64,000 nt of DNA from a candidate division WOR-1 bacterium RIFOXYB2_FULL_46_45. Its GTDB lineage: Bacteria > Margulisbacteria > WOR-1 > XYC2-FULL-46-14. Below, piece by piece: positions 17,602 through 56,040 of this stretch (its first letter is position 1; every line of letters starts with the position of its first letter). The position numbers and the translations under genes were made by a program. Location of the stretch: NCBI GenBank assembly GCA_001771585.1, contig MEUE01000001.1:21062-85061 (forward strand), given 5' to 3'. A model generated the notes under the pieces. The model did no database searches. It saw only the letters and a list, made by a program, of their open reading frames with translations, and was not told the origin of the DNA.

Positions 17602-18795
17602 CTATTTTGAACCCAAAAAAGAAAACAGGATATAGGCCAATGTTTGCGGATCAAAGGTCTTTTGGTCGCCCGAAAGCAGCTCTTCTCCGCATACCTCAAT
17701 CAAGGGATGCTCCCTGCTAATAATTTCTCCGTTAAAGTTGACAAAACGCAGGACGCTCTCCGGTGGAAAGAGGGTATTTCCAACCACCGCCGTCAAATAA
17801 CTGGAATCGTCGGCCTCGCCGCCGTTCAATCTTAAAACCCGCAATAATTCATCAACCATGTCGGAGGCCTTCATTCCTCTGGTTTCCGCGTCTTCGTACG
17901 AAGGGATTAAAAATACTTTTTGTGCGGAAGATTTCCTGATCGCTTCCGCCATCCCCTTGATGTGGAGGGTTGAAAAGATGCTCGTCCACAAGCTGCCGAT
18001 CGAATAAACCAAAAGATTCGCTTCTTCAATCGCTTTCCTGGCTCCCTCAAAAATTTGCGGTTCAACTTTTTGCCGGCTTCTAAAATCAATATGCCAGAGG
18101 TCACGGACGGGACCGTTGGCCGCTGCAGTGATAGTGTGCTGTCCTTTTATTGTTTGTCCATCATTCATTCGACCGGCCAAAGTAACATTTTCCAAAGTCG
18201 CCGGGATTATTTCTCCTTTAACCGACAACAGCTCACAATAGAAACTTATGGCCTCCGGAAGACTGTCGTTTAATAGATATAGTCCGGTTAAAAACAGATT
18301 GCCAACACTGGCACCCCTGGGATCAAATTTTTTCGCCGCTAATGTGCGGGAAGAATCAAAAGATCGTAATGCCGAGTTGAAGGCGTCCAGCCAGCAGTCA
18401 ACAAGGTTGCTTCCGGAATGCTTAACGGCGGTTATCAAAGAATGTGTTCCATCTATTAGGGTTTCCAATTCTTTTTCGGCTGTTTCCAAAGAGTACTCTT
18501 TAGGCAAACGATGTTTCATTAATGCCAACAATTCCTTGTGTCCTCCGGTTTCTGAATCGGAAAGATCAATTAGACGGCTCCGGAAATCTCCAATCCCGGG
18601 AATATTTTTAAACAAATCCCTTATTGCTCCCGTGCTTCCACCGTCATCCGCCGTATGAATAAGATAAGAGATATTGCTCGTATGTTTTGCCAATTCCATC
18701 GCCAGCGGTCGGCTTCCTGTTCCACCGGTAAAAAGGACTATCGGACTTTGGAATTGCGCCGCAATCTTTCTTCCTACTTCTATTCGATTTATCAT
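17602..18795 (-). CDS. YvcK/CofD-family protein (UPF0052, gluconeogenesis-factor-like)
   Basis: VLFTGGTGSRPL and TADDGGSTGAIRD match the YvcK/CofD family. The gene is co-oriented with pgm and pgi. Confidence 0.6.
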   Translation of the reverse strand: MINRIEVGRKIAAQFQSPIVLFTGGTGSRPLAMELAKHTSNISYLIHTADDGGSTGAIRDLFKNIPGIGDFRSRLIDLSDSETGGHKELLALMKHRLPKEYSLETAEKELETLIDGTHSLITAVKHSGSNLVDCWLDAFNSALRSFDSSRTLAAKKFDPRGASVGNLFLTGLYLLNDSLPEAISFYCELLSVKGEIIPATLENVTLAGRMNDGQTIKGQHTITAAANGPVRDLWHIDFRSRQKVEPQIFEGARKAIEEANLLVYSIGSLWTSIFSTLHIKGMAEAIRKSSAQKVFLIPSYEDAETRGMKASDMVDELLRVLRLNGGEADDSSYLTAVVGNTLFPPESVLRFVNFNGEIISREHPLIEVCGEELLSGDQKTFDPQTLAYILFSFLGSK

Positions 18796-18886: not shown

Positions 18887-19867
18887 ATGCCCAAAAACAA
18901 AATCGATACAATCGCGGTCTTAACCCCGGGAGGAGACGCGCCGGGGATGAACACCGCCATTCGCGCGGTGGTCCGGACTGCCATTTATCACAATCTAAGA
19001 ATTTTCGGGATCCAGAAAGGATGGTACGGCTTGACCACCGGCCAGATCGAAGAGTTAAATTTAAAATCAGTCGGCGGGATTATCAATAAAGGGGGAACGA
19101 TCCTCCATACCCACCGCTGTCCAGAATTTAAAGATTCCCGGGTGCGCCAAACCGGTTATAAAAACCTGGCCGAACATGGAATCGACGGGCTGGTCGTTAT
19201 CGGCGGCGACGGTTCGCTTGCCGCCGCTAACGTTGTCGCTAAAGAGACCGAATTAAACGTTGTTCATATCCCCGCCAGCATCGACAACGACATCAGCTTA
19301 ACCGATTATACGATCGGCTTTGACACCGCGGTCAATACCGCGCTCGATGCGATCGACAAGATCAGGGACACCGCCACCTCTCACGAGCGGGTCTTTGTGG
19401 TTGAAGTGATGGGAAGGAAACACGGCATCCTGGCGCTTGAAATCGGGCTGGTCAGCGGCGCGGAGTCAATTATTATTCCCGAAGTAAAATTTAATATTGC
19501 GAAGACCGCGGAAAAGATCAAAGAGGGGAGGGAGCGGGGAAAATCAAGTTTTATCATCGTGGTGGCCGAAGGGGCAATTTCTGCCATTGAATTCGCCAAA
19601 AAATTGAAAGGTAGAATCAAAAACATGGATATCAGGATCAGCGTTCTGGGGCATGTACAAAGGGGCGGCTCTCCAACCGCCATTTCACGAGAGCTGGCCT
19701 GTAAAATGGGAGCCAACGCGGTTGAAGCTCTGATTGAAGGTAAAAACTGTCTTATGATGGCAGCCAGGTCGGAGAATATCTGTCCGGTTCCGTTTAAGGA
19801 TGTTTTGAAACATAAGAAGACCGCCGATCTTAGCCAGTTGAAGCTGGCCGAGATGCTGGCGATTTAG
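18887..19867 (+). CDS. pfkA: 6-phosphofructokinase, ATP-dependent type
   Basis: IAVLTPGGDAPGMN, GGDGS and PASIDND are present. Gly is retained in GGDGS, unlike PPi-dependent enzymes. Confidence 0.88.
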   Translation: MPKNKIDTIAVLTPGGDAPGMNTAIRAVVRTAIYHNLRIFGIQKGWYGLTTGQIEELNLKSVGGIINKGGTILHTHRCPEFKDSRVRQTGYKNLAEHGIDGLVVIGGDGSLAAANVVAKETELNVVHIPASIDNDISLTDYTIGFDTAVNTALDAIDKIRDTATSHERVFVVEVMGRKHGILALEIGLVSGAESIIIPEVKFNIAKTAEKIKEGRERGKSSFIIVVAEGAISAIEFAKKLKGRIKNMDIRISVLGHVQRGGSPTAISRELACKMGANAVEALIEGKNCLMMAARSENICPVPFKDVLKHKKTADLSQLKLAEMLAI

Positions 19868-19907
19868 CACTGAAATTTTTTGCTATATATTTCGATAAAT
19901 ATGTAGC

Positions 19908-21323
19908 ATGAGCATAATTGTAAATAGATATGGTTTGCCTAAAAGGGAAATAGCTCACCTAATATTTTCAAACGAGTCAAATAAAGCAGACGATTCACTT
20001 ATACAACGGATAGTTATGCCTTTTCATCAAAATGGAACTTTTTTTATTGGAGAAAGAGCAAACAATCCTCCTTATATTCGAGGTGAAAAGAATGAAGGAT
20101 TTCTTCCTTGGGCTAGAGAAGTGACTCTTCAGGACCTAGAGCTATTAGAAATGAGTAAAGAGTTGTCTGGAATAAGTCTTTCCGAAGGAGATAGGGTATT
20201 AGTTGCCGATGCAGTTGCTAATTCTCTTACTTACTCAGATGTTGATGGCGTTCCAATTGCAGATAAAATACCTAATCAAAACTATATTGATTATGTAAGA
20301 AGATCAATAGGCTTATTATTATTTAATGATGTTAATAAGGAGTTTGATTCTGAAAAAGAGTATAACTCTCTAGGGAGAGCGGTCGTTTTATCTGTTGTAG
20401 AAAAACTAGAAAAAGAGAAACTAGAAAATCTTATGGTTTATGCAATTCTTGCCGGAGTAATTGGACTCGATATTAAATGTTCTTTTTGTGCTGCTTCAAC
20501 TTTTGATAGAAAAGGGTCTATTTGGTTAGGATGCTATGACTCTCATGATTCCGCTGTAGAGGGAGTAATTCTTGATTTAAGAAGAAGGATATCGCAATTT
20601 GATACACTTTTGTTTGACTGGAATAAATATCATTCATTGGTTTTAGAAAATCCTTGTATGCTAACTTTTTTCCCTGATGATATTCCAGAAACAATATTTG
20701 ATCTGTATCAATTACAAAAGCAAATGCTTTTTAATCCGCAACTTAGAGTACAGGTGATACCAAGAGGAGGTAGATTTCATAATGATGCCTCTTTTGAAGA
20801 TACTATGGGCCTACTTGATGAACCAATATTTTCAGATCTCGGAAGATTTATGAATGAGGGGCGTCTAGTTGTTTCTCCTCATGGCCCTAAAAATGGAGGG
20901 CTTGATTTAACCAAATTATCAAGAGAGGCAGCAGAGCTCGTCCTTGCTTCAGATGTATTGTATATAAAAGGTTCGCGTTCCTATGAGTTGGCGGCAACCG
21001 GGATCAGAATTCCGACATTTTTTGCACAAACAGTTTCAAGAGAGTTTTCAGAATCAGTTATTGGTGTTGATGCAAATAAAATGTTACCAGCTTTACAATA
21101 TGTACATGCTTTTCCTGGATTTTGGGGTTTTAGAAACAGAAATAATAACGAAGGATGGACTTCTGATATGACGGCAATTCAAAGTTCTCGTTTTATTCAG
21201 TCAGCACCCTTTGCTCGTTATGCTGATCAATATGGAGGAGTGGATGCGCTATCTCTTAGGATAATGGATAGATCTATCCAAGAAGGGATTCCACCACATT
21301 TAATAGAATTATGCATTTTGTAA
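19908..21323 (+). CDS. Hypothetical protein, possibly a DUF89/ARMT1-like damage-control phosphatase
   Basis: FFPDDIPETIFDL resembles the DUF89 DNAGE-x-FD metal motif, and VLYIKGSRSYE resembles the KGxxNYE motif. The gene has strongly lower GC and different codon usage from its neighbours. Confidence 0.3.
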   Translation: MSIIVNRYGLPKREIAHLIFSNESNKADDSLIQRIVMPFHQNGTFFIGERANNPPYIRGEKNEGFLPWAREVTLQDLELLEMSKELSGISLSEGDRVLVADAVANSLTYSDVDGVPIADKIPNQNYIDYVRRSIGLLLFNDVNKEFDSEKEYNSLGRAVVLSVVEKLEKEKLENLMVYAILAGVIGLDIKCSFCAASTFDRKGSIWLGCYDSHDSAVEGVILDLRRRISQFDTLLFDWNKYHSLVLENPCMLTFFPDDIPETIFDLYQLQKQMLFNPQLRVQVIPRGGRFHNDASFEDTMGLLDEPIFSDLGRFMNEGRLVVSPHGPKNGGLDLTKLSREAAELVLASDVLYIKGSRSYELAATGIRIPTFFAQTVSREFSESVIGVDANKMLPALQYVHAFPGFWGFRNRNNNEGWTSDMTAIQSSRFIQSAPFARYADQYGGVDALSLRIMDRSIQEGIPPHLIELCIL

Positions 21324-22306
21324 AAGGAACAGCATCATTATATAGGCCAATATTGTTATCATTGATTAGGTCAAGATCTCTTTCTGGATTGCCTTTATAT
21401 GTCGATGTTCATCCTACAACAAGGTGTAACTTGGAATGCCGCTGGTGTGTTAACAAAACAAATAAAGATACCGCGGCTTCGGAAACAATGAATGATGTTA
21501 ATATTCCTATGTATTTAACTAAGCTATTGGAGCCTCGTCCCAATAGTCCTTCCTATTCTCCCAAAAGAATTCATTTTTGTGGCGGAGAACCATTATTAAG
21601 ACGATCCGTTGTATTAGCCGGAATACGTTTTCTTGAAGGAAAAGATATTGCTGTCTCTCTTGTAACCAATGGAACATTATTAATCCAGGAAGTTAGACTG
21701 GCTGTTTTGGGCGTTGAATCCCTACAGGTTAGCATAGATGCTCAGGACCGCGAAACTTACGCCAGATTAAAAAGGGGAGATTATTTTGAGCAGGTTCTAA
21801 GAAACTTAGAAGCTTTAGCTAATTTAAGATCTAAGTCAAATTCATCTTTGCGTCTCGTAGTTAATTACGTTTTGTGCAGAGATAATATAAATGCCCTTCA
21901 TCCCTTTTTAACGCGGCTTTCAAATATTGGAGTTGATAAAATACAATTTAGAACCGATTTGACTGCTGATTTAGAAACTCAAAGAGCTTTACTTCAGGAA
22001 GTAATTGGCCTAAAGTATGAAGCTCCATTATCGGTAATAATTAAGTCTCCCGACACTCCAGTTACTAGAGATTCTTTTGACAATTGCTTGGCCCGTTTTA
22101 TTTGGATTGTTTTGGGATCGGATTTATCTATTTATCCTTGTGCCCATACGGTAGCCAGAGGTTTTCAAATGGGAAGTTTAATTGACTCTAATCTTTTTGA
22201 AGTTTTAGAAAAAAACATTAAATCCCCAAACCCCAATTGTTTGAGGATTTGTCCCTCTACTTGTGGAAATATCAATCTCCTAGGGCAGGAGATTTTAGAT
22301 CAATAA
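21311..22306 (+). CDS. Radical SAM enzyme with a C-terminal SPASM/twitch-like Cys cluster
   Basis: The CxxxCxxC motif is TTRCNLECRWC, with GGEPLL present. The C-terminal cysteines are CAHT...NCLRICPSTCGN. It overlaps the preceding gene by 13 nt and lies in the same low-GC segment. Confidence 0.75.
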   Translation: MHFVKGTASLYRPILLSLIRSRSLSGLPLYVDVHPTTRCNLECRWCVNKTNKDTAASETMNDVNIPMYLTKLLEPRPNSPSYSPKRIHFCGGEPLLRRSVVLAGIRFLEGKDIAVSLVTNGTLLIQEVRLAVLGVESLQVSIDAQDRETYARLKRGDYFEQVLRNLEALANLRSKSNSSLRLVVNYVLCRDNINALHPFLTRLSNIGVDKIQFRTDLTADLETQRALLQEVIGLKYEAPLSVIIKSPDTPVTRDSFDNCLARFIWIVLGSDLSIYPCAHTVARGFQMGSLIDSNLFEVLEKNIKSPNPNCLRICPSTCGNINLLGQEILDQ

Positions 22307-23508
22307 AACTCCACCGCGTCTTTCATTGCAAGGAGCTGGTTATCCGCAGGAATAAAGGCGCCGCCTTTGACTTCCAATAAGTTGTTCGCGACGATTTTAT
22401 CCGCCTGAAGGCCGGGATAGGTCCCAAACTTTGAATCCCGGATAAATCCAAAGATCGCATCTCCGAATCTTAAACCCAGCAGGCGGTCGGCAACATGGGC
22501 CACTCCGCCGCGGATGGCGTGGCCGCAGTTCTGCAGGCGGTATTCAATCCCTTTAGTATGTTTTTCCAATAGGGCATAAATATATTCCCCAATTCCACCC
22601 AGTTGCTCATTTCCAAAAGAATCGAGTTTCTTGGGTAACGCGTGCCGGGCTTTGATCATGGCGTATTTTGGGTCGGCTAAAACATCGTCCAATAACTTTT
22701 GGTTGCTGTCGTTAATTTCTTTTGGGTAACTCTTGTCAAAGAGGCGGGATCCTTCAGACGTTACCACGACACAATAATTCTGATAGGCCATCGCCTTTTC
22801 AACCTTTTTGATAACCTGGCGCATGTCAACCGTTTCTTCCGGAAGAAGGACAATATCTGCTCCTCCGGCAATTCCGGCATGAAGCGCGACCCAGCCGGCA
22901 TGCCGTCCCATTAGTTCTATGACAAAACAGCGGTTGTGGGAGCGGACGGTCGTCATAATATTCTCAATAAAATGGACCGATTCGATCACCGCCGACTCAA
23001 AACCATACGTCCTCTCGGTGCCAAAAACATCGTTATCCATGGTTTTGGGAGCCCCAAGCATCGGGAAAGAAAATTGTTTCCCCAGTTTTCCGGCGGCGCC
23101 AAGGGTATCATCTCCGCCTAAAACAACCAAACAATCAATCCCAAGCTTCTTTAGATTTTCCATCGCCTTTTCGGGGGCTTTCGCTTCAATATTTGCCTTT
23201 GAAAAGAGATTGGTGCGGGAGGATTTGATGATTGTCCCGGAAACCTTATAGCTGTCTTTTAAATCTTCGGTTTTTAATGGACGAAGGATTTTATCCTTTT
23301 CGGTATCGGGATTTCTGGTTAGTGCTTTCCATCCTTCCAGCAGGCCGATTAACTCCATCTTTTCATCGGCCGGAAGCGACTGGTTTGCCTGATTGATCCT
23401 GCGCAGTAGTCCGTAGATTACGGCATTGTGTCCGGCGCAATCCCCGCCGCCGGTTAGGATTCCGATTCTTTTGATGTTAATTTCTTTTCCCTGAAACTTG
23501 ACTCTCAT
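22300..23508 (-). CDS. pfp: Pyrophosphate-dependent phosphofructokinase (PFK-A family, PPi type)
   Basis: GGDDT has Asp replacing the ATP-specific Gly, and PKTMDND has Lys replacing Gly. Both are established PPi-PFK signatures. The protein is 402 aa. Confidence 0.8.
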   Translation of the reverse strand: MRVKFQGKEINIKRIGILTGGGDCAGHNAVIYGLLRRINQANQSLPADEKMELIGLLEGWKALTRNPDTEKDKILRPLKTEDLKDSYKVSGTIIKSSRTNLFSKANIEAKAPEKAMENLKKLGIDCLVVLGGDDTLGAAGKLGKQFSFPMLGAPKTMDNDVFGTERTYGFESAVIESVHFIENIMTTVRSHNRCFVIELMGRHAGWVALHAGIAGGADIVLLPEETVDMRQVIKKVEKAMAYQNYCVVVTSEGSRLFDKSYPKEINDSNQKLLDDVLADPKYAMIKARHALPKKLDSFGNEQLGGIGEYIYALLEKHTKGIEYRLQNCGHAIRGGVAHVADRLLGLRFGDAIFGFIRDSKFGTYPGLQADKIVANNLLEVKGGAFIPADNQLLAMKDAVEFY

Positions 23509-25645: not shown

Positions 25646-26920
25646 ATGATAGCAATTAGACCTGGCCATGCCGCAATTCAACCTAAAGCCATACAAGTAC
25701 TACCAAAAGGATCGGTGGATTTTTCTACTGTTCGGTCTCATGCTTTGATGGTGGGGAGTACAAGTTTTTCGCTTAGCAAGTTTAGACGTGGGGGGAGCGA
25801 TATTGCAATAAGCATTGGCGAATTAGAACTTGGGAAAATAGGAATGAACCAATCGATCGCTTTAGTTTATGGCGGGGTTGATTATGTCTTTTCCAGGAAA
25901 ACCTGCGCCGAACTTGATACTGTTTCTGTTGCTGCTTTGGATCTGCCTTCTGACATAGAGCCATATTATCATTCCATGAATATGGCTCTAGAAAGGATGG
26001 AAGCTGAAGGATTCGAAGAAGATGGTCCGATTATAAAAAGACCCGCTATAACCAGGCAAGTACAAGTTGATTCTTCTGATGTCAAATGCATGGGAGATCC
26101 GGGATATTTAATAGAAATTAATCCTGGAGTAAAAACAGTATTTATCGGAGATCTTCACGCGAATGCTAAAAATTTATTAAGCGCCGTAAACGCCCACGAA
26201 AAAGAATTGGCTGAAGAAAAGGTTGTTATTGTGGTTATGGGGGATGCTATCCATCCCCAAACCGGCAACTTGGAAGAAATGGATTCTTCAATTGAAATGA
26301 TCAGGATTATTTGCGACCTAAAAGCAAAGTACGGGGATTGTTTTCATTATATATTGGGGGATCATGAAACCTTGGAACCCGGATTCATGACAAAGAGAAA
26401 TATTGACCAGCCGGATCTTTTTGTGAAAGCGGTAGTTAGAAAACTCGGTAATGCGTATGTCAGAAAGATCGATGCTTTATGGAAAGGCTGTCCATATGCG
26501 GTACTTATACCTGGAATTGCTTTTGCGGCACATAATGCTGTTGTGGAAAACTTGAACGGTATAGATGATATTATTCACGCGGGACTTCCCGGAAGCGAGA
26601 GGGTGGCCTTGACCTTATTGAGCTTCAGGCCAGAAGCAGTTGATTTGAAAAGCGGTAATACTTATCCCCCCCAAGCCTCGGAAAGGATGAAACAACTTTT
26701 AAAAGTAAAAAACCTGATTTCTGCCCACACCTCGGATCCGGAGGGTAAAAGTTCAATTGTAACTTTTGGGCAAATGCCCGGCCATTATTTCCTTCAAGGA
26801 TGGGGAAGCCCCGAATTCTTGCCGTTTCAGGTTATGGAGGTTGGGGAAGACGGGAATTTGCTCCCAATATTTATTAGTCCTGATGGAGAAAAAAGCCTCG
26901 GACAAGTGAGGAATATATGA
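25646..26920 (+). CDS. Two-domain protein with an unknown ~150-aa N-terminal domain and a calcineurin-like metallophosphoesterase domain (divergent PPP motifs)
   Basis: GDLHA, GDAIH and GDHE occur at PPP-like spacings (~31 and ~39 aa), resembling GDxHG / GDxxDRG / GNHE. A strong SD AGAGGAGG lies upstream. GC is lower than in the flanking genes. Confidence 0.45.
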   Translation: MIAIRPGHAAIQPKAIQVLPKGSVDFSTVRSHALMVGSTSFSLSKFRRGGSDIAISIGELELGKIGMNQSIALVYGGVDYVFSRKTCAELDTVSVAALDLPSDIEPYYHSMNMALERMEAEGFEEDGPIIKRPAITRQVQVDSSDVKCMGDPGYLIEINPGVKTVFIGDLHANAKNLLSAVNAHEKELAEEKVVIVVMGDAIHPQTGNLEEMDSSIEMIRIICDLKAKYGDCFHYILGDHETLEPGFMTKRNIDQPDLFVKAVVRKLGNAYVRKIDALWKGCPYAVLIPGIAFAAHNAVVENLNGIDDIIHAGLPGSERVALTLLSFRPEAVDLKSGNTYPPQASERMKQLLKVKNLISAHTSDPEGKSSIVTFGQMPGHYFLQGWGSPEFLPFQVMEVGEDGNLLPIFISPDGEKSLGQVRNI

Positions 26921-27513
26921 GCGACTGGCAGTGTAATTTTAAACCGACGGCACAAAAATATTATACATTAAAACCCGAGGATAAGCTGTGTGTAAATACC
27001 GATCCAAACAAGCATTATCGAATCGAGGTTAAAAGCAGGGACGATGCCGAATTAAAGCTTCGTGAATTAGCAAAAAAAGCATTAACTGAAGAGTCTTGGA
27101 TATATATTGAAGTTAAATTAAAGAATGGAAAAATTGCCAGGTTTTTGTGCGAAGACGGGGTTAATGAAGAAAAAGGAGCGATCGGCGAAGTCAACATAAA
27201 AGTTCTAGACGAAATTTTGAAATTAGGACAGATTCTTGAAATAGGGGATTATCACATCCACCCAACAGATTCCCTAAAAAGTGTAAGTAGTCTTGGATTG
27301 CCAGTGTTTGATTTGACATCTCCCGCTGATTTAGAAAGTGCGAACACAAGGAAAGAATATCTTGCTCGACAAGGATTTAAAGATATTCCTTATGATTCAA
27401 GATCGGTATCAGAAAAAAAAGTAATTATTGTCATTCCTCCCAAGGAAGAAGCTGGAGAATTTCCATTTTCTTTCATTTCTTCTATCCCAAAAATTATTTA
27501 TAGAAAGTTTTGA
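26917..27513 (+). CDS. Hypothetical protein (198 aa), translationally coupled to the upstream phosphatase-like gene
   Basis: The ATGA overlap couples it to the upstream gene. It contains EIGDYHIHPTDSLKS, which is His-rich but not a clean JAMM motif. No recognisable family was found. Confidence 0.35.
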   Translation: MSDWQCNFKPTAQKYYTLKPEDKLCVNTDPNKHYRIEVKSRDDAELKLRELAKKALTEESWIYIEVKLKNGKIARFLCEDGVNEEKGAIGEVNIKVLDEILKLGQILEIGDYHIHPTDSLKSVSSLGLPVFDLTSPADLESANTRKEYLARQGFKDIPYDSRSVSEKKVIIVIPPKEEAGEFPFSFISSIPKIIYRKF

Positions 27514-50041: not shown

Positions 50042-53000
50042 TTACGCGTTCACCAGATTACTCGCATCCCTATAATGCTCGTAAACAAAGTTATAAACTT
50101 CGATTTTCTTTATTTCACAATCTTGCTCTGTATAAGTTGGTTCCGGCAGTTTTTCATACAAAAGATCAGAAATGGTAGTTTTGACTCCTGCCCTATTTGG
50201 CTCAAAATCTCGCCAGTGAGAAACCAAAAGCGGCTTGAGATTTATAAGCAATTCATGAGATGTACCTTTTATGCAAGCAACTTCATCGGGATTGAGATTA
50301 TCTTTGATAAGCAGATCAAAAATCGCTAACTCCTCTTCGGTCATGTTTTCTCTGGCAGCGCGTTGTTCTTCTTCACTTAGATCTTTTGCCAAATCGATGA
50401 GATCTTCAAAAAGCTGGTCAATGTCATGGGCGCCGCTATTATATTCTTGCAAGAGAGAAATAAGCCTTTCCATAAATTTGGCCCGTTTTTTGTTTTTTCT
50501 AACCATTTCCGCTATTTTCTTTTTAAGTTCGGCACTCATACAAGCTACTTGCATATTCTTGTTTTCCAGCCCGGCAAAAAAAGCCTGAAGGGCATTGGCA
50601 TCAAGCAAGCTCAAATCTTTTATCTTTTTGTGCTGTGGAATGACATATTCACCCGCCTGGATAGATTTATCCAGCAAATCCTCTAAATCTTTTTTTACCT
50701 GGGAAACGTCCACGCTTTTTGCTCCCACATCGCGGATACGAGATGCCAAAACACGGACAGCTGTTACTTCGCGGCAATAATCTTCCGCGTTGGGATCAGG
50801 CAAGACCGAACGATAAGCGCTTTGCAAATCACTGGAAAGATTAAGAAACTTTTTCTTGTTTTCCTGGACGCCAATAATTTTGTCGGCATATTGTTCCAGG
50901 ATCAGCAATTTCTGCTCGCTCGGCGCTGCCAATAAAGGCTCAAGCTCCATTTTCTCTCCCCGCATAAATTCCTTTGCATTACGCAACGCCTTTTTCAGAT
51001 CAGTAAGCAACTCGTCTTTACTCCGAATAATTTCATCCTCATCCGTTCCGGTGGCCGCATATAAAGCCAAAGCACGCTCAATATTTTTAAACACGCCAAT
51101 ATAATCCACGATTAAACCGTTTTTCTTCCCTTCATCAGCAACACGGTTAGCGCGCGCGATAGTTTGCATCAAGGTATGGTTTTTAAGCGGCTTATCCAAA
51201 TAAAGAGTGGAAAGATTGGGCACATCAAAACCGGTCATCCACATGGCACAAACAAAGATAATGCGCAGATTGCTATTAGCCTTCTTAAACTCCTCTTCCA
51301 GATTACCATGGATTATCCGCTCTCTAATCGGTCGGACATCAATTTCATACTGTTCCATATCGCTAATTTCGTTTTGGTTGTCGCCCAAGCTGACCATAAC
51401 TGCCATATCCACTTTTTCGTATTGCTCCAGTTTGGCAAGGATCTTTTCCTGCTCGCGCTCGTCGGCAACGCGGGAAAGATCCATGCGCAATTTTGCAATA
51501 TAACGGCCCCATTCTTTTTTTACTTTGTCATACATCCTGAAAGCGGTCTTTTTATCAATGGATACCACCATTGCCTTGCCATCGTATCCCCGCCCCACAA
51601 AGTGCTCCACAATATCGCGGGCAATAGTATTAAGCCGGTCTTCACGGGTAACAATTTCATAAAAAGTGGAGTATTCCCTTTCCAGTTTTTCCTCTTCATC
51701 CTCATCAAGGTCATACCTGTCCAGCAATTGCCCTAATTGAACTTCCAGGTTTTCATTAACATTTTTGAGGCGCGGAACCCGATTCTCGTAAAAGAGCGGA
51801 ACGGTTGAACCATCAGCCACTGACTGTCCAAAGTTATAAACGGAAACATACTCGCCAAAAGTTTTGATTGTTTCCGGCTCATTAGCAGCCATCAATGGGG
51901 TACCGGTAAAGCCGATAAAAGAAGCGTTAGGCAGGGCCCGGCGCATATTAAGAGCCATTTGATCATACTGGGTGCGGTGCGCCTCATCGGTCATAACGAT
52001 TATGCTGTCGCGCGTGGAAATTGGTCCGGAGATATCCTGGAATTTTTGGATAGTAGTAAAAATTTGGCGATGGTCCTCACCCAGCAAAGCGTGAAGATGA
52101 GCGATGCTTTCAGCATGAACCTCTTTTTCATAAACCGCGCCAACATGGGCAAAATTATCATATGCTTGTCCATCCAGCTGCGCCCGGTCAGTTACAATTA
52201 CAAAGGTAAAATTGCCTTCCAATTTACGCAAGACTTTTTGCGACAGCCAGACCATGGAATATGATTTTCCCGAGCCTTGCGTGTGCCAGAAGACGCCAAG
52301 TTTGCCATCTTTTTCGTGACGATCAACGACATTATTAAATGCGCGATTGACCCCAAAATATTGAAAATAGCGCGGGAGTATTTTTTTGACAGAGCCAAGG
52401 GATTCGTCAAACAGCACAAAGTTTTCCAAGATATCAAGCAAGCGTGTTTTGTCGCAAATGCCGTTAATAATTGTTGCTAGGTCTGTTCTGGGTTTATCTT
52501 CTTCCCTTTTCGCCTTTTTCCATTCGTTAAAAAACTCATAAGGAGAGGTAAGGGAGCCAAATTTATTTTCAATGCCGTTAGAAATAATAATTCCCAGGTT
52601 ATACCAAAAAAGCTTGGGGATAGTGCCTTTGTAATCGCGGATATTATCGCGGTAGGCGTCAACCAGGCTTTTGTGCGAAGCTTTTAGTTCCAGGAGCACT
52701 AGCGGAATACCGTTAACAAAGAGGACGATATCCGGGCGTCTGGTATACATGGGGCCAACCACCCAGAGCTGGGAAACACAAAGGAAGTGGTTGTTTTTAG
52801 GGTTTTCAAAATCAAAAAACCGCACCCGATCTATTTTGTTTTGTCCTTTAGTATTAACGGTTTTAACGTTTGCCCCATCGCGCAAGAGCTGATAAACTTC
52901 GTGATTAGCTTTAACCAGGCTTAGGTTGGAGCGATCGCGGATAAGTTCATCTATGGCAATAACGAGGGCGCTTTCGGACAAGTGGGGATTGATCTTTTTA

Positions 53001-53173
53001 AGCGCTGGCATGAGATATTTTTCCAGCACCACTTCACCTTGATTTTTACGGCCAAGCAACAAATCGTTTTCTTCTTTAAAGGTGTCAATATGACAATCTT
53101 TATCCGCCCAAACTTTTTTGATGAGCCTGATAACCGTTTTTTCCACTAAATTAGCTTCGTTAAATTGGGTCAT
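50042..53173 (-). CDS. hsdR: Type I restriction enzyme R subunit (HsdR)
   Basis: The 1043-aa product has an SF2 helicase core with DEAH (VMTDEAHRTQ). Confidence 0.92.
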   Translation of the reverse strand: MTQFNEANLVEKTVIRLIKKVWADKDCHIDTFKEENDLLLGRKNQGEVVLEKYLMPALKKINPHLSESALVIAIDELIRDRSNLSLVKANHEVYQLLRDGANVKTVNTKGQNKIDRVRFFDFENPKNNHFLCVSQLWVVGPMYTRRPDIVLFVNGIPLVLLELKASHKSLVDAYRDNIRDYKGTIPKLFWYNLGIIISNGIENKFGSLTSPYEFFNEWKKAKREEDKPRTDLATIINGICDKTRLLDILENFVLFDESLGSVKKILPRYFQYFGVNRAFNNVVDRHEKDGKLGVFWHTQGSGKSYSMVWLSQKVLRKLEGNFTFVIVTDRAQLDGQAYDNFAHVGAVYEKEVHAESIAHLHALLGEDHRQIFTTIQKFQDISGPISTRDSIIVMTDEAHRTQYDQMALNMRRALPNASFIGFTGTPLMAANEPETIKTFGEYVSVYNFGQSVADGSTVPLFYENRVPRLKNVNENLEVQLGQLLDRYDLDEDEEEKLEREYSTFYEIVTREDRLNTIARDIVEHFVGRGYDGKAMVVSIDKKTAFRMYDKVKKEWGRYIAKLRMDLSRVADEREQEKILAKLEQYEKVDMAVMVSLGDNQNEISDMEQYEIDVRPIRERIIHGNLEEEFKKANSNLRIIFVCAMWMTGFDVPNLSTLYLDKPLKNHTLMQTIARANRVADEGKKNGLIVDYIGVFKNIERALALYAATGTDEDEIIRSKDELLTDLKKALRNAKEFMRGEKMELEPLLAAPSEQKLLILEQYADKIIGVQENKKKFLNLSSDLQSAYRSVLPDPNAEDYCREVTAVRVLASRIRDVGAKSVDVSQVKKDLEDLLDKSIQAGEYVIPQHKKIKDLSLLDANALQAFFAGLENKNMQVACMSAELKKKIAEMVRKNKKRAKFMERLISLLQEYNSGAHDIDQLFEDLIDLAKDLSEEEQRAARENMTEEELAIFDLLIKDNLNPDEVACIKGTSHELLINLKPLLVSHWRDFEPNRAGVKTTISDLLYEKLPEPTYTEQDCEIKKIEVYNFVYEHYRDASNLVNA

Positions 53174-54666
53174 AATTTTTGAGAAAAATAATTACATGCT
53201 TCTAATAGAAACTGTTCGAATTCGACAAGCCAATTATTAAAATCATCATTATTCAACATTTCCTTATAAAGCTGATTAAAAACTTCGTTTTCAGTTATAG
53301 AGATCGACGCCTCAACACATCTAGAAAATAAAATATGGGCAGGAGAATGATCTAAATGATATTGCAAATTTGCATTCGGATATTTATTTAAGTAATTTCT
53401 CAGCAAAAATTTTTCTGGGGGGTCACCAGAAAAGAGAAAACTTATTCTATCATCGGTTCCGATTATTGCTGAATAAACATCTCTCTTATCTCCATCAAAA
53501 ACCGCAGCATATCCAATATTTATTTTTGAAAGACCCCAAGTTCTCTTAAATACATCATAATTTTCCTTGACTTGTTTATCCGAACCAGAAAGAACAACGT
53601 TAATGTGTCTGTGTATATCACGATAACCTTTGTTTTGTAATGATTCCAGTGCTTTATTTATTATTCTTAGAGATACCGGATCTTCATAAAATAGATTTAA
53701 AAGTGGAAATATCTGAGAATCCATCTTTGAAAAAGCCGCATTAACACTAATTCTTTGAATTGAACGAGAATCATTGTTTTCCTTTTTTTCTATAAAAATA
53801 CGCGACTCATGATCAAAACTTGCAAGAAGCGTTGGCGAGTGCGTCGTAACAATAAATTGTTTTTGATCTTTCAATGCTATGTCCATTAAGACATCTACAA
53901 GTCTTCGTTGGATTTTAGGGTGCAACCCCAACTCTAATTCGTCAATTAAAACAAGAGATTTCTTCTCAGCCTGAACAGAATCAAGCAGGATGGCCAATAA
54001 AACATCTTCTCCAGAAGCTGAATTAAAACTGGTAAAAACATTATTCAGTTTATAACTGGCCTTATTATGATGCCTTGCGATATGAGCAAGCTCAAACGAA
54101 GTTTCAAAAACATACTCAAAATATTCAACAACCCGAGGATCAAGCTGAGTAATCGCTCCAGATGCCTGTGTATTAATAAACAAGACATTTGAACATGCCC
54201 GTGCTGGAGTTATGCGATCCACATCTATATAAATGACTTTTCTGTTTCGTATTTGACTTTCTTTTTTTGCAATCCCACTCCATTTTTTTGTGATAGCTGT
54301 TCTTTTTCCTTCTTTTTCTTCAGCATGCTTACCTATTTTATATTTAATATTATATTCCCAATCAGATGCCTGCTTATCATGTTTGGTAAATTTAACCAAA
54401 CGACCCCAAGTACAACGATTAAATTCCCCAGTCCCAATATCTCTCATTTGAAACTCAAAATGACTGCACGCCAACATAGCCAAAATGCTGGTTTTGCCAA
54501 TTTTATTGGTACCTGTAAGAACAGTTAGTGGATGTATAAAATTTAGATCCAATCTTGATATATTTCGAAACCTTTTTATAATCAATTTATGAGTAAATAG
54601 CGGAAATTGATGTTCATTGTCAAGATCAATATTTTTTAATTGTTGCCGAGTTTTATTAGGATTCAC
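53170..54666 (-). CDS. AAA_21-type ABC ATPase with a C-terminal TOPRIM-like region (RloA/RloB-, OLD- or PARIS-like candidate defence protein) embedded between hsdS and hsdR
   Basis: Walker A is LTGTNKIGKTS, Walker B is LVLIDELELGLHP, and the H-loop is IVTTHSPTLL. The C-terminal ~170 aa carry VVLSGSDK...AVFDGDKRD (TOPRIM-like DxD). It has 4-nt overlaps with both hsdR and hsdS. Confidence 0.55.
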   Translation of the reverse strand: MNPNKTRQQLKNIDLDNEHQFPLFTHKLIIKRFRNISRLDLNFIHPLTVLTGTNKIGKTSILAMLACSHFEFQMRDIGTGEFNRCTWGRLVKFTKHDKQASDWEYNIKYKIGKHAEEKEGKRTAITKKWSGIAKKESQIRNRKVIYIDVDRITPARACSNVLFINTQASGAITQLDPRVVEYFEYVFETSFELAHIARHHNKASYKLNNVFTSFNSASGEDVLLAILLDSVQAEKKSLVLIDELELGLHPKIQRRLVDVLMDIALKDQKQFIVTTHSPTLLASFDHESRIFIEKKENNDSRSIQRISVNAAFSKMDSQIFPLLNLFYEDPVSLRIINKALESLQNKGYRDIHRHINVVLSGSDKQVKENYDVFKRTWGLSKINIGYAAVFDGDKRDVYSAIIGTDDRISFLFSGDPPEKFLLRNYLNKYPNANLQYHLDHSPAHILFSRCVEASISITENEVFNQLYKEMLNNDDFNNWLVEFEQFLLEACNYFSQKL

Positions 54667-54670
54667 ACTT

Positions 54671-55828
54671 TCAACCCCTCTTCCCCGTAACCAACTGGGG
54701 AATTAAAAGATCACGGATTTTGGATAGATTTTGACTTTGATCAAGCAGGTTTGTAATTTTTGACCGGAGCATAGAAACCTTACTCTCAAAGTCTTCTAAT
54801 GTTTTTTTGTCTGGAACAAGTATATTGATCATTCCTACTTGTTTTGAATTTACGCTTTTCCTGGTAGTCCCACTTGATGAACCAACTACAAAGTTTTGAT
54901 ATTTTTCTGATATTAGAAAATAAAACAAAAAATAGCTTGTTAGCCGGCTCTTTATTTTTAATCTCATTAGATATGAGGCAAAAATTGCATCAACCTGCTT
55001 TTCACATATACCTATTTTCCCCGGATCAGCCATACGAATAATAAATATGTCCCCTTTTTGTATTGTGTATCTATTTTTATCATCTGCTTTAATTTCACAA
55101 CACGGCACAGATGACCAATTTATGTATGAAGTCTTATTAATATCCATACCTCGTAAAAACTTAACGCCGGATGTTTTGTCAATTGCTGATGTGGTAAACC
55201 CATATTGTGGTTGTATTAAATCCCCCAACCTCTTCACCCCCCACCCCTCCGGTATCTTGCCATACTCTGTCCCACTATCAACCATCTTAACCTTTTTATG
55301 GCAAGGAAATTTAAACTTCACAAACCACTCGGCATAAAGCCGCTGGGCTATTTCTTCCAGAATTTTGATCCGCTTTTCGTTGTTTTCAATCAGATCGTCG
55401 TAGGTGGAGAGGATGGAGGCGATGCGGGATTGGGTTGGGAGATCGGGACGATATGCAATAATTTGATTTAATAATCTTTGCGTCATTAATGGCTGGGCAG
55501 CGCCACCAGCATATTTATTTAAGTTTAATATCCTTAATAAATAATTGACATATGTCAAATTATTTTCTTCTTCATCAACTTTTGCAACTATTGTATTGTC
55601 AGAAGCCCAAAATCTACTTTTGCACATTTCAACGGATCCACAATAAGCGCCCACTCTACCTATTATTATTGCATTTTCATATTGGTATTCCTCAGATCCA
55701 CCAATGACCCCATTTGAACCAAAAACAGGATATCTCCCCTCTCCTCCAGGCCTTATTGATTTTCCATTAAAGAAATGTAATAAATCCCTTAATCTCACTT
55801 TCTTAAAATTTGCCTTATTTCTTTTCAA
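54671..55828 (-). CDS. hsdS: Type I restriction-modification specificity subunit (HsdS), two target-recognition domains
   Basis: The 385-aa product has HsdS-typical central and C-terminal conserved helices (LDDLIENNEKRIKILEEIAQRLY, LLDQSQNLSKIRDLLIPQLVTGK). Confidence 0.85.
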   Translation of the reverse strand: MKRNKANFKKVRLRDLLHFFNGKSIRPGGEGRYPVFGSNGVIGGSEEYQYENAIIIGRVGAYCGSVEMCKSRFWASDNTIVAKVDEEENNLTYVNYLLRILNLNKYAGGAAQPLMTQRLLNQIIAYRPDLPTQSRIASILSTYDDLIENNEKRIKILEEIAQRLYAEWFVKFKFPCHKKVKMVDSGTEYGKIPEGWGVKRLGDLIQPQYGFTTSAIDKTSGVKFLRGMDINKTSYINWSSVPCCEIKADDKNRYTIQKGDIFIIRMADPGKIGICEKQVDAIFASYLMRLKIKSRLTSYFLFYFLISEKYQNFVVGSSSGTTRKSVNSKQVGMINILVPDKKTLEDFESKVSMLRSKITNLLDQSQNLSKIRDLLIPQLVTGKRG

Positions 55829-55899
55829 TTCTCAACCTCTCCATCCCATGTTTCCTCCCTGACTTTCCAATCAAATAGCCATCAAATGACCTTCCCCAA

Positions 55900-56034
55900 T
55901 TAATATCTTTTGCCATCAGAACCAGTATTCCGGAATTTCCGGATAACTGCCTCCTTTGTCAATTCCGCTGCCAAAAATATGTTTTGCAAGTGCTCACTGA
56001 CTGTACGCACATCAACGCCAAAAAGTTCCTCCAT
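55900..56034 (-). pseudogene. Relic 44-codon fragment of a RhuM-family gene between hsdM and hsdS
   Basis: Translation MEELFGVDVRTVSEHLQNIFLAAELTKEAVIRKFRNTGSDGKRY aligns with the core of the intact RhuM two genes upstream (IALLFGVQRPAITKHLKNIFENGEL...TADDGKTY). It is truncated at both ends. Confidence 0.4.
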
Positions 56035-56040
56035 CCCTTT

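What the first reader, a model, noticed from the sequence alone, without database searches (positions are those of the whole stretch)
19908..22306. Low-GC two-gene insertion (DUF89-like protein plus radical-SAM/SPASM enzyme) splitting the pfkA/pfp glycolytic block
The segment is visibly AT-richer, with different codon usage, than flanking pfkA and pfp, indicating horizontal acquisition. Gene 1 (471 aa) has DDIPETIFD and IKGSRSYE motifs reminiscent of DUF89/ARMT1 damage-control phosphatases but a long unique N-terminus. Gene 2 is a radical-SAM enzyme with extra C-terminal cysteines (SPASM/twitch). It overlaps gene 1, so the two are probably co-translated. The pairing is not a described pathway; candidates include cofactor or metabolite repair, or peptide or sugar modification.
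Basis: partly seen in the sequence, partly recalled or inferred. Interest (0 to 1): 0.6.

Follow-up and report, generated by a model that had tools for sequence, protein, structure and literature searches.

The report
Foreign DUF89-like phosphatase plus radical-SAM pair
An AT-rich, apparently imported two-gene operon sits between two glycolysis genes; it joins a radical-SAM enzyme to a rare phosphatase-like protein whose relatives are nearly always attached to immune-type nucleotide enzymes (TIR, HIT, methyltransferase), so it probably makes or processes a modified nucleotide rather than serving glycolysis.

Summary
Two intact + strand ORFs lie between pfkA and a second PFK-family gene: 19908-21323 (471 aa) and 21311-22306 (331 aa), overlapping by 13 nt. 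Their GC is 0.36-0.37 (GC3 0.21-0.27), against 0.46-0.51 (GC3 0.41-0.60) in the flanks.

Gene 1 has a full DUF89 fold and belongs to a distinct clade of at least 299 clusters with an invariant DD...E[TS] / ND / [KR]GxRxxE core. I found no description of this clade. Members are fused or adjacent to SAM methyltransferase, TIR, HIT, nucleoside phosphorylase, guanylate kinase and NDP-sugar transferase domains. Some sit beside NACHT, restriction-modification, toxin-antitoxin or conjugation genes.

Gene 2 is a radical-SAM enzyme with four conserved C-terminal cysteines (twitch/SPASM-like, no RRE). It fails the viperin cutoff. Its family has four clusters in 5.8 billion proteins. All three members with readable flanks lie at the 3' end of pfp in Saganbacteria-like genomes. 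The window copy is only 25-27% identical to the other two, while the flanks are 79-90% identical.

The pair was found nowhere else. My best reading (confidence about 0.4) is a nucleotide-centred, conflict-type small-molecule module, acquired by replacement in a variable slot. Metabolite repair and chance juxtaposition remain open.

The parts
19864..19891 (+). Promoter-like site (TTAGCA-16-TATATT) in the 40-nt pfkA-gene 1 spacer; a possible own promoter for the pair
   Evidence: This is a weak consensus match only: 12 sites were found in the region against 9.5 expected by chance.
19908..21323 (+). Gene 1: 471-aa DUF89-fold protein of a distinct TIR/HIT/MTase-associated clade. It is about 35 aa shorter at the N-terminus than most homologues.
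20271..20294 (+). Gene 1 aa 122-129, PNQNYIDY, a family signature in the helical half. Q124 and R132 are conserved across the wider clade.
20475..20498 (+). Gene 1 aa 190-197, KCSFCAAS. K190 and S197 are near-invariant in the wide clade. C191 and C194 are invariant only in the narrow 17-member clade.
20676..20702 (+). Gene 1 aa 257-265, DDIPETIFD. D257-D258 follow the predicted strand 250-255. I infer they correspond to the DUF89 Asp nucleophile and the Asn metal ligand, with Asn replaced by Asp.
   Evidence: D257 in 136/139 and D258 in 138/139 relatives; residue roles from PMC9062747. The equivalence is an inference.
20778..20786 (+). Gene 1 aa 291-293, HND. N292-D293 are near-invariant; I infer D293 is the second metal-binding Asp.
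   Evidence: inference
20964..20987 (+). Gene 1 aa 353-360, IKGSRSYE ([KR]GxRxxE). I infer K354 is the phosphate-contacting Lys.
   Evidence: inference
21311..21323 (+). 13-nt overlap of the gene 2 start (ATG 21311) with the gene 1 end (TAA 21321-21323)
21311..22306 (+). Gene 2: 331-aa radical-SAM enzyme with a twitch/SPASM-like C-terminal domain, from a four-cluster family
21425..21448 (+). Gene 2 aa 39-46, CNLECRWC: the CX3CX2C motif that binds the radical-SAM [4Fe-4S] cluster
21581..21592 (+). Gene 2 aa 91-94, GGEP (SAM-binding GGE motif). It is present here and in P0019 but replaced in P0020 and P0021.
22085..22252 (+). Gene 2 aa 259-314: four family-invariant cysteines (C259-x17-C277-x32-C310-x3-C314), a putative auxiliary Fe-S site
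22220..22250 (-). Terminator-like hairpin plus T-run on the minus strand, just downstream of the pfp stop (22300) and inside the 3' coding region of gene 2
   Evidence: pattern match only

Best explanation
The segment is a compositionally foreign two-gene operon. It occupies a lineage-specific variable slot between pfkA and pfp in a Saganbacteria (WOR-1)-like genome.

Gene 1 is an intact enzyme of a distinct clade of DUF89-fold, metal-dependent phosphohydrolase-like proteins. Elsewhere this clade is fused or adjacent to nucleotide-handling domains typical of biological-conflict systems: TIR, class I SAM methyltransferase, HIT, nucleoside phosphorylase, guanylate kinase and NDP-sugar transferases. 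Gene 2 is a radical-SAM enzyme with one auxiliary-cluster (twitch/SPASM-like) domain.

Proposed mechanism:
1. Gene 2 uses a 5'-deoxyadenosyl radical to alter the sugar part of a nucleotide or nucleotide-sugar, as viperin, DesII and BlsE do.
2. Gene 1 removes or transfers a phosphate on the substrate or the product.
3. The resulting modified nucleoside or nucleotide acts in conflict (anti-phage or similar). It does not serve glycolysis.

Shown: the ORFs, the overlap, the foreign composition, both folds, the conserved catalytic-type residues, the rarity of both families, and the partners and fusions of the gene 1 clade. Inferred: the substrate class, the order of the steps, phosphatase activity, and the conflict role.
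For: - Operon signs: the genes overlap by 13 nt, lie on the same strand, and share low GC and GC3.
- Gene 1 fold: the top 20 Foldseek PDB hits are all DUF89; the target-normalised TM-score is 0.72-0.74 with PH1575.
- Gene 1 catalytic core: DD/E[TS], ND, [KR]GxRxxE and K190 are near-invariant in 145 wider relatives. They fit the Asp/Asn/Asp/Lys catalytic set of DUF89.
- Neighbours in the 10 loci with a gene 1 homologue. Seven carry a TIR and/or MTase partner, in three different gene orders: TIR-MTase upstream (L001, L002, L006; L004 shows only an MTase fragment), MTase/TIR plus NTP_transferase (L007-9), TIR downstream (L011/12), TIR-MTase downstream (L100). One has HIT with a 4-nt overlap (L010).
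- Fusions among 45 long relatives: MTase 23, TIR 9, HIT 3, and one each of PNP_UDP_1, guanylate kinase and UDPGP.
- Conflict or mobile-element context: NACHT plus integrase (L001); PvuII, ParE and PIN (L007); TrwC/TraI (L011).
- In the window, the only other equally AT-rich patch is a type I R-M plus AAA_15 ATPase island.
- Precedent for a radical-SAM enzyme paired with a phosphoesterase in a validated defence system: Ophion (bioRxiv 10.1101/2025.09.30.679545).
Against: - The pair was found nowhere else. None of 10 gene-1-family loci and none of 45 fusion proteins has an rSAM. The three other gene-2-family loci show no DUF89-like gene, although L093 and L095 show only a few dozen bases upstream.
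- Gene 1 matches no PADLOC model. Nothing related to it turned up in the phage, plasmid or viral-contig collections, and nothing related to gene 2 in viral contigs.
- By sequence, gene 2's best solved relative is the peptide maturase CteB (E 8e-15, full length). Viperin matches only the N-terminal core, at 1.6e-5.
- The pVip score of 75.6-78 bits is at the generic rSAM level. It equals the score for a tungsten-cofactor maturase and is far below the NCBIfam cutoff of 180.
- The rSAM family is resident at this locus in relatives that lack gene 1, so the two genes could be independent.
- Most comparison loci are short metagenomic contigs. I ran no statistical enrichment test against defence genes.
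- There is no experimental evidence of any kind.
Confidence: 0.4

Rival explanations
1. Two functionally independent genes lie side by side in a variable slot. Gene 2 is this lineage's resident rSAM with its own unknown job. Gene 1 is a stand-alone DUF89-like enzyme that landed next to it. The overlap gives co-expression, not a shared pathway.
For: - The rSAM family lies at the 3' end of pfp in all three genomes with context, without a DUF89-like gene in L098.
- The cargo of the slot differs in every genome: LacI, an aldo-keto reductase and four unknown ORFs in L098; an HTH-PIN pair in L095.
- The pairing is seen nowhere else.
Against: - Both genes share the same foreign composition, while the rSAM copies in the relatives are compositionally native. 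The pair therefore probably arrived together.
- The 13-nt overlap with a conserved start suggests an established operon.
- Relatives of gene 1 are almost always partnered.
Confidence: 0.25
2. A DUF89 damage-control phosphatase and a radical-SAM enzyme act on a sugar phosphate or cofactor linked to the surrounding glycolytic genes, for metabolite repair or sugar modification.
For: - Characterised DUF89 enzymes are phosphometabolite phosphatases (PMC9062747; literature listed).
- The pair lies between pfkA and pfp-fba-tpiA.
- The same slot in L098 holds a LacI-type regulator and an aldo-keto reductase.
- Twitch-type rSAMs include sugar-modifying enzymes such as BtrN and DesII.
Against: - The NCBIfam damage-control phosphatase equivalog scores 18.8 bits against a cutoff of 440.
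- The gene 1 clade associates with TIR, HIT, MTase and mobile or defence genes, not with central metabolism.
- The composition is foreign, and gene 1 is absent from close relatives that have the same glycolytic genes.
- Both families are extremely rare: 17 and 4 clusters in 5.8 billion proteins. That is unexpected for a repair function tied to universal glycolysis.
Confidence: 0.12
3. Gene 2 is a protein or peptide maturase of the SPASM/twitch type, like CteB, SkfB or anSME. It modifies a peptide encoded elsewhere, or gene 1's own product, for example at the invariant KCS[HF]CA[AT]S cysteine motif.
For: - The best PDB match by sequence is CteB, aligned over the full length at E 8e-15.
- L098 has small ORFs of 52 and 73 aa just upstream of its rSAM.
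- A defence system matured by an rSAM enzyme exists (HXS, PMC13128918, listed).
- Gene 1 carries a clade-specific CxxC motif in a low-confidence loop.
Against: - There is no RRE domain: only 38 residues precede CX3CX2C.
- There is no room for a small ORF in the window. The upstream spacer is 40 nt, and the 3' ends of gene 2 and pfp overlap.
- The other 16 members of gene 1's narrow clade keep the Cys motif, and none of the 10 loci examined has an rSAM neighbour.
- The full seven-Cys SPASM motif is absent, and Pfam SPASM does not hit.
Confidence: 0.1

Closest known systems
DUF89 / ARMT1-like metal-dependent phosphatases (PF01937: PH1575, AF1104, At2g17340, yeast YMR027W, S. pombe Duf89/Duf8901, the PANK4 C-terminal domain)
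   Same: The overall fold is the same: the top 20 Foldseek hits are all DUF89. There is a weak Pfam match over the core. Acidic and Lys motifs lie at positions consistent with the Asp nucleophile, the metal ligands and the phosphate-binding Lys.
   Different: No solved DUF89 is detectable by sequence. The Pfam score is below cutoff for the window protein. The signature is DD rather than the canonical Asp-Asn. The clade has its own extra conserved motifs (PNQNYIDY, K190...S197, C-terminal FPxxWGF). Its partners are TIR, HIT and MTase rather than CoA or sugar-phosphate metabolism.
Twitch/SPASM radical-SAM enzymes (CteB, SkfB, SuiB, anSME, BtrN, DesII, BlsE)
   Different: There is no RRE or leader-binding domain and no precursor peptide nearby. 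Only four conserved C-terminal Cys are present (C-x17-C-x32-C-x3-C), not the seven-Cys SPASM motif. Pfam SPASM does not hit. All NCBIfam equivalog scores are far below cutoff.
Prokaryotic viperins (pVip), which make ddhNTP chain terminators, often alongside nucleotide kinases
   Different: The NCBIfam viperin score is 75.6 against a cutoff of 180. The match covers only the N-terminal core, model positions 2-163 of 257. To my knowledge viperins have no auxiliary cluster, whereas four conserved extra Cys are present here. The partner is a phosphatase-type protein, not a kinase.
Ophion defence system (rSAM OpnA + PHP phosphoesterase OpnB + PRTase OpnC; bioRxiv 10.1101/2025.09.30.679545)
   Same: It is a validated anti-phage system that combines a viperin-related but distinct radical-SAM enzyme with a metal-dependent phosphoesterase and nucleotide-metabolism enzymes.
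   Different: The phosphoesterase belongs to a different family (PHP, not DUF89). The window has no PRTase. Ophion is reported from Gammaproteobacteria. I did not test homology between the rSAM enzymes.
Thoeris and other TIR-based signalling systems
   Same: Close relatives of gene 1 are adjacent or fused to TIR_2/ThsB-like TIR domains, sometimes in defence-island-like surroundings.
   Different: The window has no TIR gene. The text searches of the 2025 census of Thoeris types V-XI found no phosphatase term and no DUF89 among the DUF mentions shown (12 of 43 matching places were displayed). In these relatives the TIR is usually fused to a SAM methyltransferase.

Membership tests
DUF89 / ARMT1-like (PF01937) | Pfam model at or above the gathering score | tested here: not met
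   23.5 bits against a cutoff of 25, covering only aa 260-360. 12 of the 17 narrow-clade homologues have a precomputed PF01937 hit, and 31 of 45 long relatives match it at E<=1e-4.
DUF89 / ARMT1-like (PF01937) | DUF89 three-dimensional fold (helical domain plus Rossmann-like core) | tested here: met
   AlphaFold2 model: pLDDT 81.8, pTM 0.86. The top 20 Foldseek PDB hits are all DUF89; the best is 2g8l, E 7.5e-9, target-normalised TM-score 0.72-0.74.
DUF89 / ARMT1-like (PF01937) | Asp nucleophile, Asn and Asp metal ligands, and phosphate-binding Lys (PMC9062747) | tested here: inconclusive
   D257-D258, N292-D293 and K354 are near-invariant and lie after the expected strands. The residue-by-residue equivalence is inferred, not superposed, and Asn is replaced by Asp.
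DUF89 / ARMT1-like (PF01937) | Metal-dependent phosphohydrolase activity | not testable with these tools
   Requires an enzyme assay.
NCBIfam NF040824 damage-control phosphatase (equivalog) | Score at or above the curated cutoff | tested here: not met
   18.8 bits against a cutoff of 440.
Radical SAM superfamily (PF04055) | CX3CX2C cluster motif, GGE motif, and Pfam score above cutoff | tested here: met
   C39/C43/C46 and GGEP 91-94. PF04055 scores 52.9 bits against a cutoff of 29.5.
SPASM / twitch subclass | C-terminal auxiliary Fe-S cluster domain (SPASM: seven Cys; twitch: a partial set binding one cluster) | tested here: inconclusive
   PF13186 does not hit the window protein; the hit on P0021 is faint. 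Four Cys are family-invariant: 259, 277, 310 and 314. The profile aligns with CteB through its SPASM region. The seven-Cys motif is absent, so the domain is twitch-like at most.
Prokaryotic viperin (NF038283 / PADLOC pVip) | Score at or above the NCBIfam cutoff, with a full-length match including the viperin C-terminal extension | tested here: not met
   75.6 bits against a cutoff of 180. The match covers model positions 3-169 of 281 (NCBIfam) and 2-163 of 257 (PADLOC) only.
RiPP-maturing rSAM (sactipeptide/ranthipeptide type) | N-terminal RRE or leader-binding domain and an adjacent precursor peptide gene | tested here: not met
   Only 38 residues precede the cluster motif. There is no space for a small ORF at either end of the pair.
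Thoeris-like TIR system | A TIR-domain gene in the operon | tested here: not met
   Neither window protein has a TIR hit. TIR is present only in relatives' loci.
Ophion | rSAM together with PHP and PRTase genes | tested here: not met
   Pfam finds no PHP or PRTase domain in either protein or in the immediate neighbours.

The most novel reading that the evidence does not exclude
The gene 1 clade (DUF89 fold, DD/ND/[KR]GxRxxE signature, at least 299 clusters) is the conserved core of an unrecognised family of nucleotide-based immune systems. Its partner enzyme is interchangeable: TIR-methyltransferase in most, HIT in some, a twitch radical-SAM enzyme here. The window would then encode a new radical-SAM branch that makes a previously unknown antiviral or toxic nucleoside or nucleotide, with the DUF89-like enzyme carrying out an essential phosphate-removal or phosphate-transfer step.
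Probability: 0.25. Interest if true: 0.8.

Novelty: new variant of a known kind. Interest (0 to 1): 0.6.

Why it matters
If the reading is right, a protein fold known only for housekeeping 'damage-control' phosphatases also has a large branch wired to TIR, HIT, methyltransferase and radical-SAM enzymes. I found no description of such a branch. That would add a new enzymatic component, and possibly new small-molecule chemistry, to nucleotide-based immunity. The locus is also a clean case of in-place replacement: a fast-evolving gene was swapped inside an otherwise conserved glycolytic neighbourhood of a candidate phylum. Even if the window's pair turns out to be a chance juxtaposition, the TIR-methyltransferase plus DUF89-like association found on the way can be tested directly.

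Tried and rejected
- Close relatives of gene 1 in 185,579 species-representative genomes: none found.
- Using pfkA to find close relatives for synteny in the same collection: the best hits were only 45-52% identical and spread across phyla, so they were useless. Synteny came instead from looking up the rSAM homologues.
- Viral contigs, phage and plasmid collections: no relatives of gene 1 in any of them, and no relatives of gene 2 in viral contigs.
- Sequence search of the gene 1 family profile against PDB chains, even at E<=10: no hits. Residue equivalences with DUF89 therefore rest on motif position and predicted secondary structure.
- Whether the upstream fragments at P0019 (L093) and P0020 (L095), or the unknown ORFs in L098, are DUF89-like: they are not.
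- Flanking direct or inverted repeats and Rfam elements as marks of a mobile element: only short chance-level repeats and no RNA family.
- PADLOC on gene 1 and its homologues: no model matches.
- Literature searches for DUF89 with TIR, phage or defence terms: nothing relevant.
- Rejected 'gene 2 is a viperin': the score is below cutoff, the match is N-terminal only, and extra conserved Cys are present.
- Rejected 'gene 1 has a unique N-terminus'.
- The afdb50 fold library was unavailable.
- The first residue-mapping script was misregistered and was redone.
Full report
**1. What is in the sequence**

Upstream is an ATP-type pfkA (18887-19867, +). Downstream, convergent and overlapping the last 7 nt of gene 2, is a second PFK-family gene (22300-23508, -), followed by fba and tpiA.

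The composition is clearly foreign:

| Gene | GC | GC3 |
|---|---|---|
| gene 1 | 0.357 | 0.212 |
| gene 2 | 0.368 | 0.271 |
| five flanking genes (pgm, cofD-like, pfkA, pfp, fba) | 0.46-0.51 | 0.41-0.60 |

The segment has z = -2.6. Only 2.2% of equal-sized windows in the 64 kb are as AT-rich, and all of them are either this segment or the type I restriction-modification island at about 52-56 kb.

The 13-nt overlap depends on the ATG at 21311. The JGI gene call used a later start (317 aa). However, the homologues P0019 and P0021 start with the same M[HY]F..(G)TA..Y sequence, so the overlapping start is the better-supported one.

No flanking repeats, integrase gene or RNA element mark a mobile element. 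A promoter-like site lies in the 40-nt spacer upstream of gene 1, but such sites are no more frequent in the region than chance predicts.

**2. Gene 1**

Sequence evidence alone is weak. Pfam gives a sub-threshold ARMT1-like/DUF89 match (23.5 vs 25 bits, aa 260-360). NCBIfam's damage-control phosphatase equivalog scores 18.8 against a cutoff of 440. The family profile finds no solved structure by sequence.

The fold evidence is strong. An AlphaFold2 model (pLDDT 81.8, pTM 0.86) retrieves only DUF89 structures as its top 20 Foldseek hits. These include PH1575 (E 7.5e-9, target-normalised TM-score 0.72-0.74), At2g17340, AF1104 and the yeast DUF89 proteins. The alignments span 341-357 columns against the 285-286-residue PH1575. 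The N-terminal half is therefore not a unique extension; it is conserved across the family and most likely corresponds to the helical part of the DUF89 fold.

In the 5.8-billion-protein collection only 17 clusters are close relatives, at 35-45% identity. None occurs in 185,579 representative genomes, in phages, in plasmids or in viral contigs.

An exhaustive profile search shows a wider clade: 299 clusters at E<=1e-3 and 125 at E<=1e-30. Across 145 of these, the following are near-invariant:
- D257, D258, E261 and T/S262
- P285, R/K286, N292 and D293
- K/R354, G355, R357 and E360
- K190, S197, Q124 and R132

In solved DUF89 enzymes an Asp nucleophile next to an Asn, a second Asp and a Lys build the metal-phosphate site (PMC9062747). 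The family's DD, ND and KG motifs sit after the corresponding predicted strands. I therefore infer an active metal-dependent phosphoryl-transfer enzyme in which the canonical Asn is replaced by Asp. This equivalence was not checked by superposition.

**3. What gene 1's relatives keep company with**

I could read ten loci that carry a close homologue.

| Locus | Neighbour of the DUF89-like gene |
|---|---|
| L001, L002, L006 | TIR-SAM-methyltransferase fusion gene immediately upstream (4-nt overlap in L001 and L002) |
| L004 | methyltransferase C-terminal fragment upstream (cut contig) |
| L100 | TIR-methyltransferase gene immediately downstream |
| L007-9 | NTP_transferase gene plus a 691-aa methyltransferase-like/TIR protein upstream |
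| L011/12 | a 51-aa ORF and a TIR protein downstream |
| L010 | HIT-family gene upstream with a 4-nt overlap |
| L003 | flavin reductase upstream |
| L099 | no called neighbour; IS-like fragments |

Some surroundings look like defence or mobile DNA: a 2248-aa NACHT protein and an integrase (L001); PvuII, ParE and PIN (L007); TrwC/TraI (L011).

The same partnerships recur as fusions. Of the 45 relatives of 580 aa or more, 23 carry a class I methyltransferase domain, 9 a TIR and 3 a HIT. Single cases carry a PNP_UDP_1 phosphorylase, a guanylate kinase, a UDP-glucose pyrophosphorylase, a metallo-beta-lactamase or an MFS transporter. Triple TIR-DUF89-like-methyltransferase proteins also exist. None carries a radical-SAM domain.

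PADLOC v2 has no model for this clade. Full-text searches found no paper that links DUF89 to TIR or to defence. My text searches of the 2025 census of TIR signalling systems found no phosphatase term and no DUF89 among the DUF mentions shown.

**4. Gene 2**

Gene 2 is a true radical-SAM enzyme. PF04055 scores 52.9 bits, and it has C39/C43/C46 and GGEP 91-94.

Its best curated-family scores are all at the generic level: tungsten-cofactor maturase 75.9, prokaryotic viperin 75.6 (cutoff 180) and MoaA 64. The PADLOC pVip hit of 78 bits covers only the N-terminal core. It is not a viperin.

The family is tiny: four clusters, even in a profile search. These are the window protein, P0019 (43% identical), P0020 (a WOR-1 bacterium) and P0021 (the last two 25-27% identical). 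Four C-terminal cysteines are invariant, spaced C259-x17-C277-x32-C310-x3-C314.

The family profile aligns over its full length with the SPASM thioether-forming maturase CteB (E 8e-15). The AlphaFold model (pLDDT 79.9) matches a tight group:
- Foldseek: DesII 1.9e-16, SuiB, SkfB, CteB, BlsE, anSME, viperin

The enzyme is therefore a twitch/SPASM-type radical-SAM protein. It lacks an RRE domain, and no precursor peptide gene lies nearby. Fold comparison cannot say whether its substrate is a peptide or a nucleotide-linked sugar.

**5. The locus in relatives**

The two distant family members lie at the same chromosomal place.
- In L098 (GCA_964421245.1) the order is CofD-like, pfkA, then LacI, an aldo-keto reductase and four unknown ORFs (241, 141, 52 and 73 aa), then the rSAM, then convergent pfp-fba-tpiA.
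- In L095-97 the order is rSAM, an HTH_17-PIN pair, then pfp-fba-tpiA. All three assemblies break just upstream of the rSAM.

Identity between the window and these genomes:

| Protein | Identity |
|---|---|
| pfkA | 79% |
| pfp | 83-86% |
| fba | 87-90% |
| tpiA | 80-83% |
| rSAM | 25-27% |

P0020 and P0021 are 55% identical to each other. In the relatives the rSAM has the same GC as its flanks (0.375 vs 0.39-0.40 in L098; 0.42 vs 0.42 in L095). Those genomes are themselves AT-richer overall (0.385 and 0.411) than the window.

P0020's source name places these genomes in candidate division WOR-1, that is Candidatus Saganbacteria. The best full-length homologue of gene 1 is from a Margulisiibacteriota MAG.

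My reading is that the gap between pfkA and pfp is a variable slot in this lineage and that this rSAM family is its constant occupant. The window's gene 1-gene 2 unit most likely replaced the local version by recombination with a lower-GC relative. This is an inference. 'Insertion that splits the glycolytic block' is therefore only partly right.

**6. Mechanism**

I commit to the following reading, at about 0.4 confidence. The pair is one operon that acts on a nucleotide-derived small molecule. Gene 2 performs radical chemistry on the sugar moiety. Gene 1 performs a phosphate-removal or phosphate-transfer step. The role is in biological conflict.

The support comes from four lines:
- the operon signs
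- the nucleotide-centred and TIR-centred company kept by gene 1's clade
- the foreign composition, shared in this window only with a restriction-modification island
- the precedent of Ophion, a validated defence system that joins a viperin-related radical-SAM enzyme to a phosphoesterase and a PRTase

Against it: the pairing is unique so far. Gene 2's nearest sequence relative is a peptide maturase. No enrichment statistics could be run. Nothing here is experimental.

The rivals are:
- independent neighbours in a hotspot (0.25)
- a protein or peptide maturase role for gene 2, possibly acting on gene 1's clade-specific KCS[HF]CA[AT]S motif (0.10)

**7. Verdict**

Both proteins are new, divergent members of known superfamilies, and I found no description of their pairing. 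The most interesting by-product is the apparently unreported association between TIR-methyltransferase, HIT and DUF89-like domains. Interest is 0.6.

Noticed in passing
window 50042-57621 (- strand): A type I restriction-modification operon: hsdM 56041-57621, hsdS 54671-55828 and hsdR 50042-53173. An AAA_15/AAA_21 ATPase (53170-54666) is inserted between hsdS and hsdR; in PADLOC it matches HEC-04 at 106 bits and PtuA-like models. This is the only other patch of the window as AT-rich as the finding (GC 0.335-0.36).
   Followed up: partly
window 25646-27513 (+): An AT-rich pair lies directly after tpiA: a 424-aa protein with a Metallophos match (27.9 bits, cutoff 21.5) and, overlapping it, a 198-aa protein with no family hit (GC 0.425 and 0.357). 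Neither hits PADLOC. The equivalent place holds a Fic protein in L098 and pyruvate kinase in L095, so this may be a second variable slot.
   Followed up: partly
window 22220-22250 (- strand): A 12-pair hairpin followed by a T-run lies just downstream of the pfp stop codon. It looks like the pfp terminator, yet it falls inside the 3' coding region of gene 2 (around aa 304-314, next to the conserved Cys310/Cys314).
   Followed up: no
window 17602-18795 (-): The CofD-like gene gives its best NCBIfam hit to 'GAK system CofD-like protein' (224.5 bits, below the cutoff of 340). It is only 37% identical to the CofD-like gene at the same position in L098, although the adjacent pfkA is 79% identical.
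   Followed up: no
L095 1-2132; L096; L097: In the WOR-1 relatives an HTH_17-PIN pair, which looks like a toxin-antitoxin module, lies between the rSAM and pfp. All three independent assemblies break within 100 nt upstream of the rSAM, which hints at a repeat or a strain-variable region there.
   Followed up: no
L098 2206-5950: In this relative the pfkA-pfp slot holds a LacI-type regulator, an aldo-keto reductase and four ORFs (241, 141, 52 and 73 aa) with no Pfam hit. The two small ORFs lie just upstream of the rSAM and could be precursor peptides.
   Followed up: partly
P0173 (6726 aa), P0277 (2150 aa), P0159 (1650 aa), P0154 (1536 aa): Giant multidomain proteins contain the gene 1-type DUF89-like module, for example at residues 2079-2543 of the 6726-aa protein. 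P0154 also carries a weak HAD-like (Hydrolase_3) match and a methyltransferase domain. P0159 also has a zinc-peptidase-like motif.
   Followed up: partly
L099 1819-2652: Downstream of the most divergent close homologue (P0016) lie only short ORF fragments. From memory they resemble IS66 and IS21/IstB transposase pieces. I ran no family search on them.
   Followed up: no
window 19908; alignment A1 columns 1-60: The window's gene 1 lacks about 35 N-terminal residues (the HPFxFLW...P.S..EA segment) that most homologues have. The pfkA stop is only 40 nt upstream, so the 5' end may have been trimmed when the unit arrived.
   Followed up: partly
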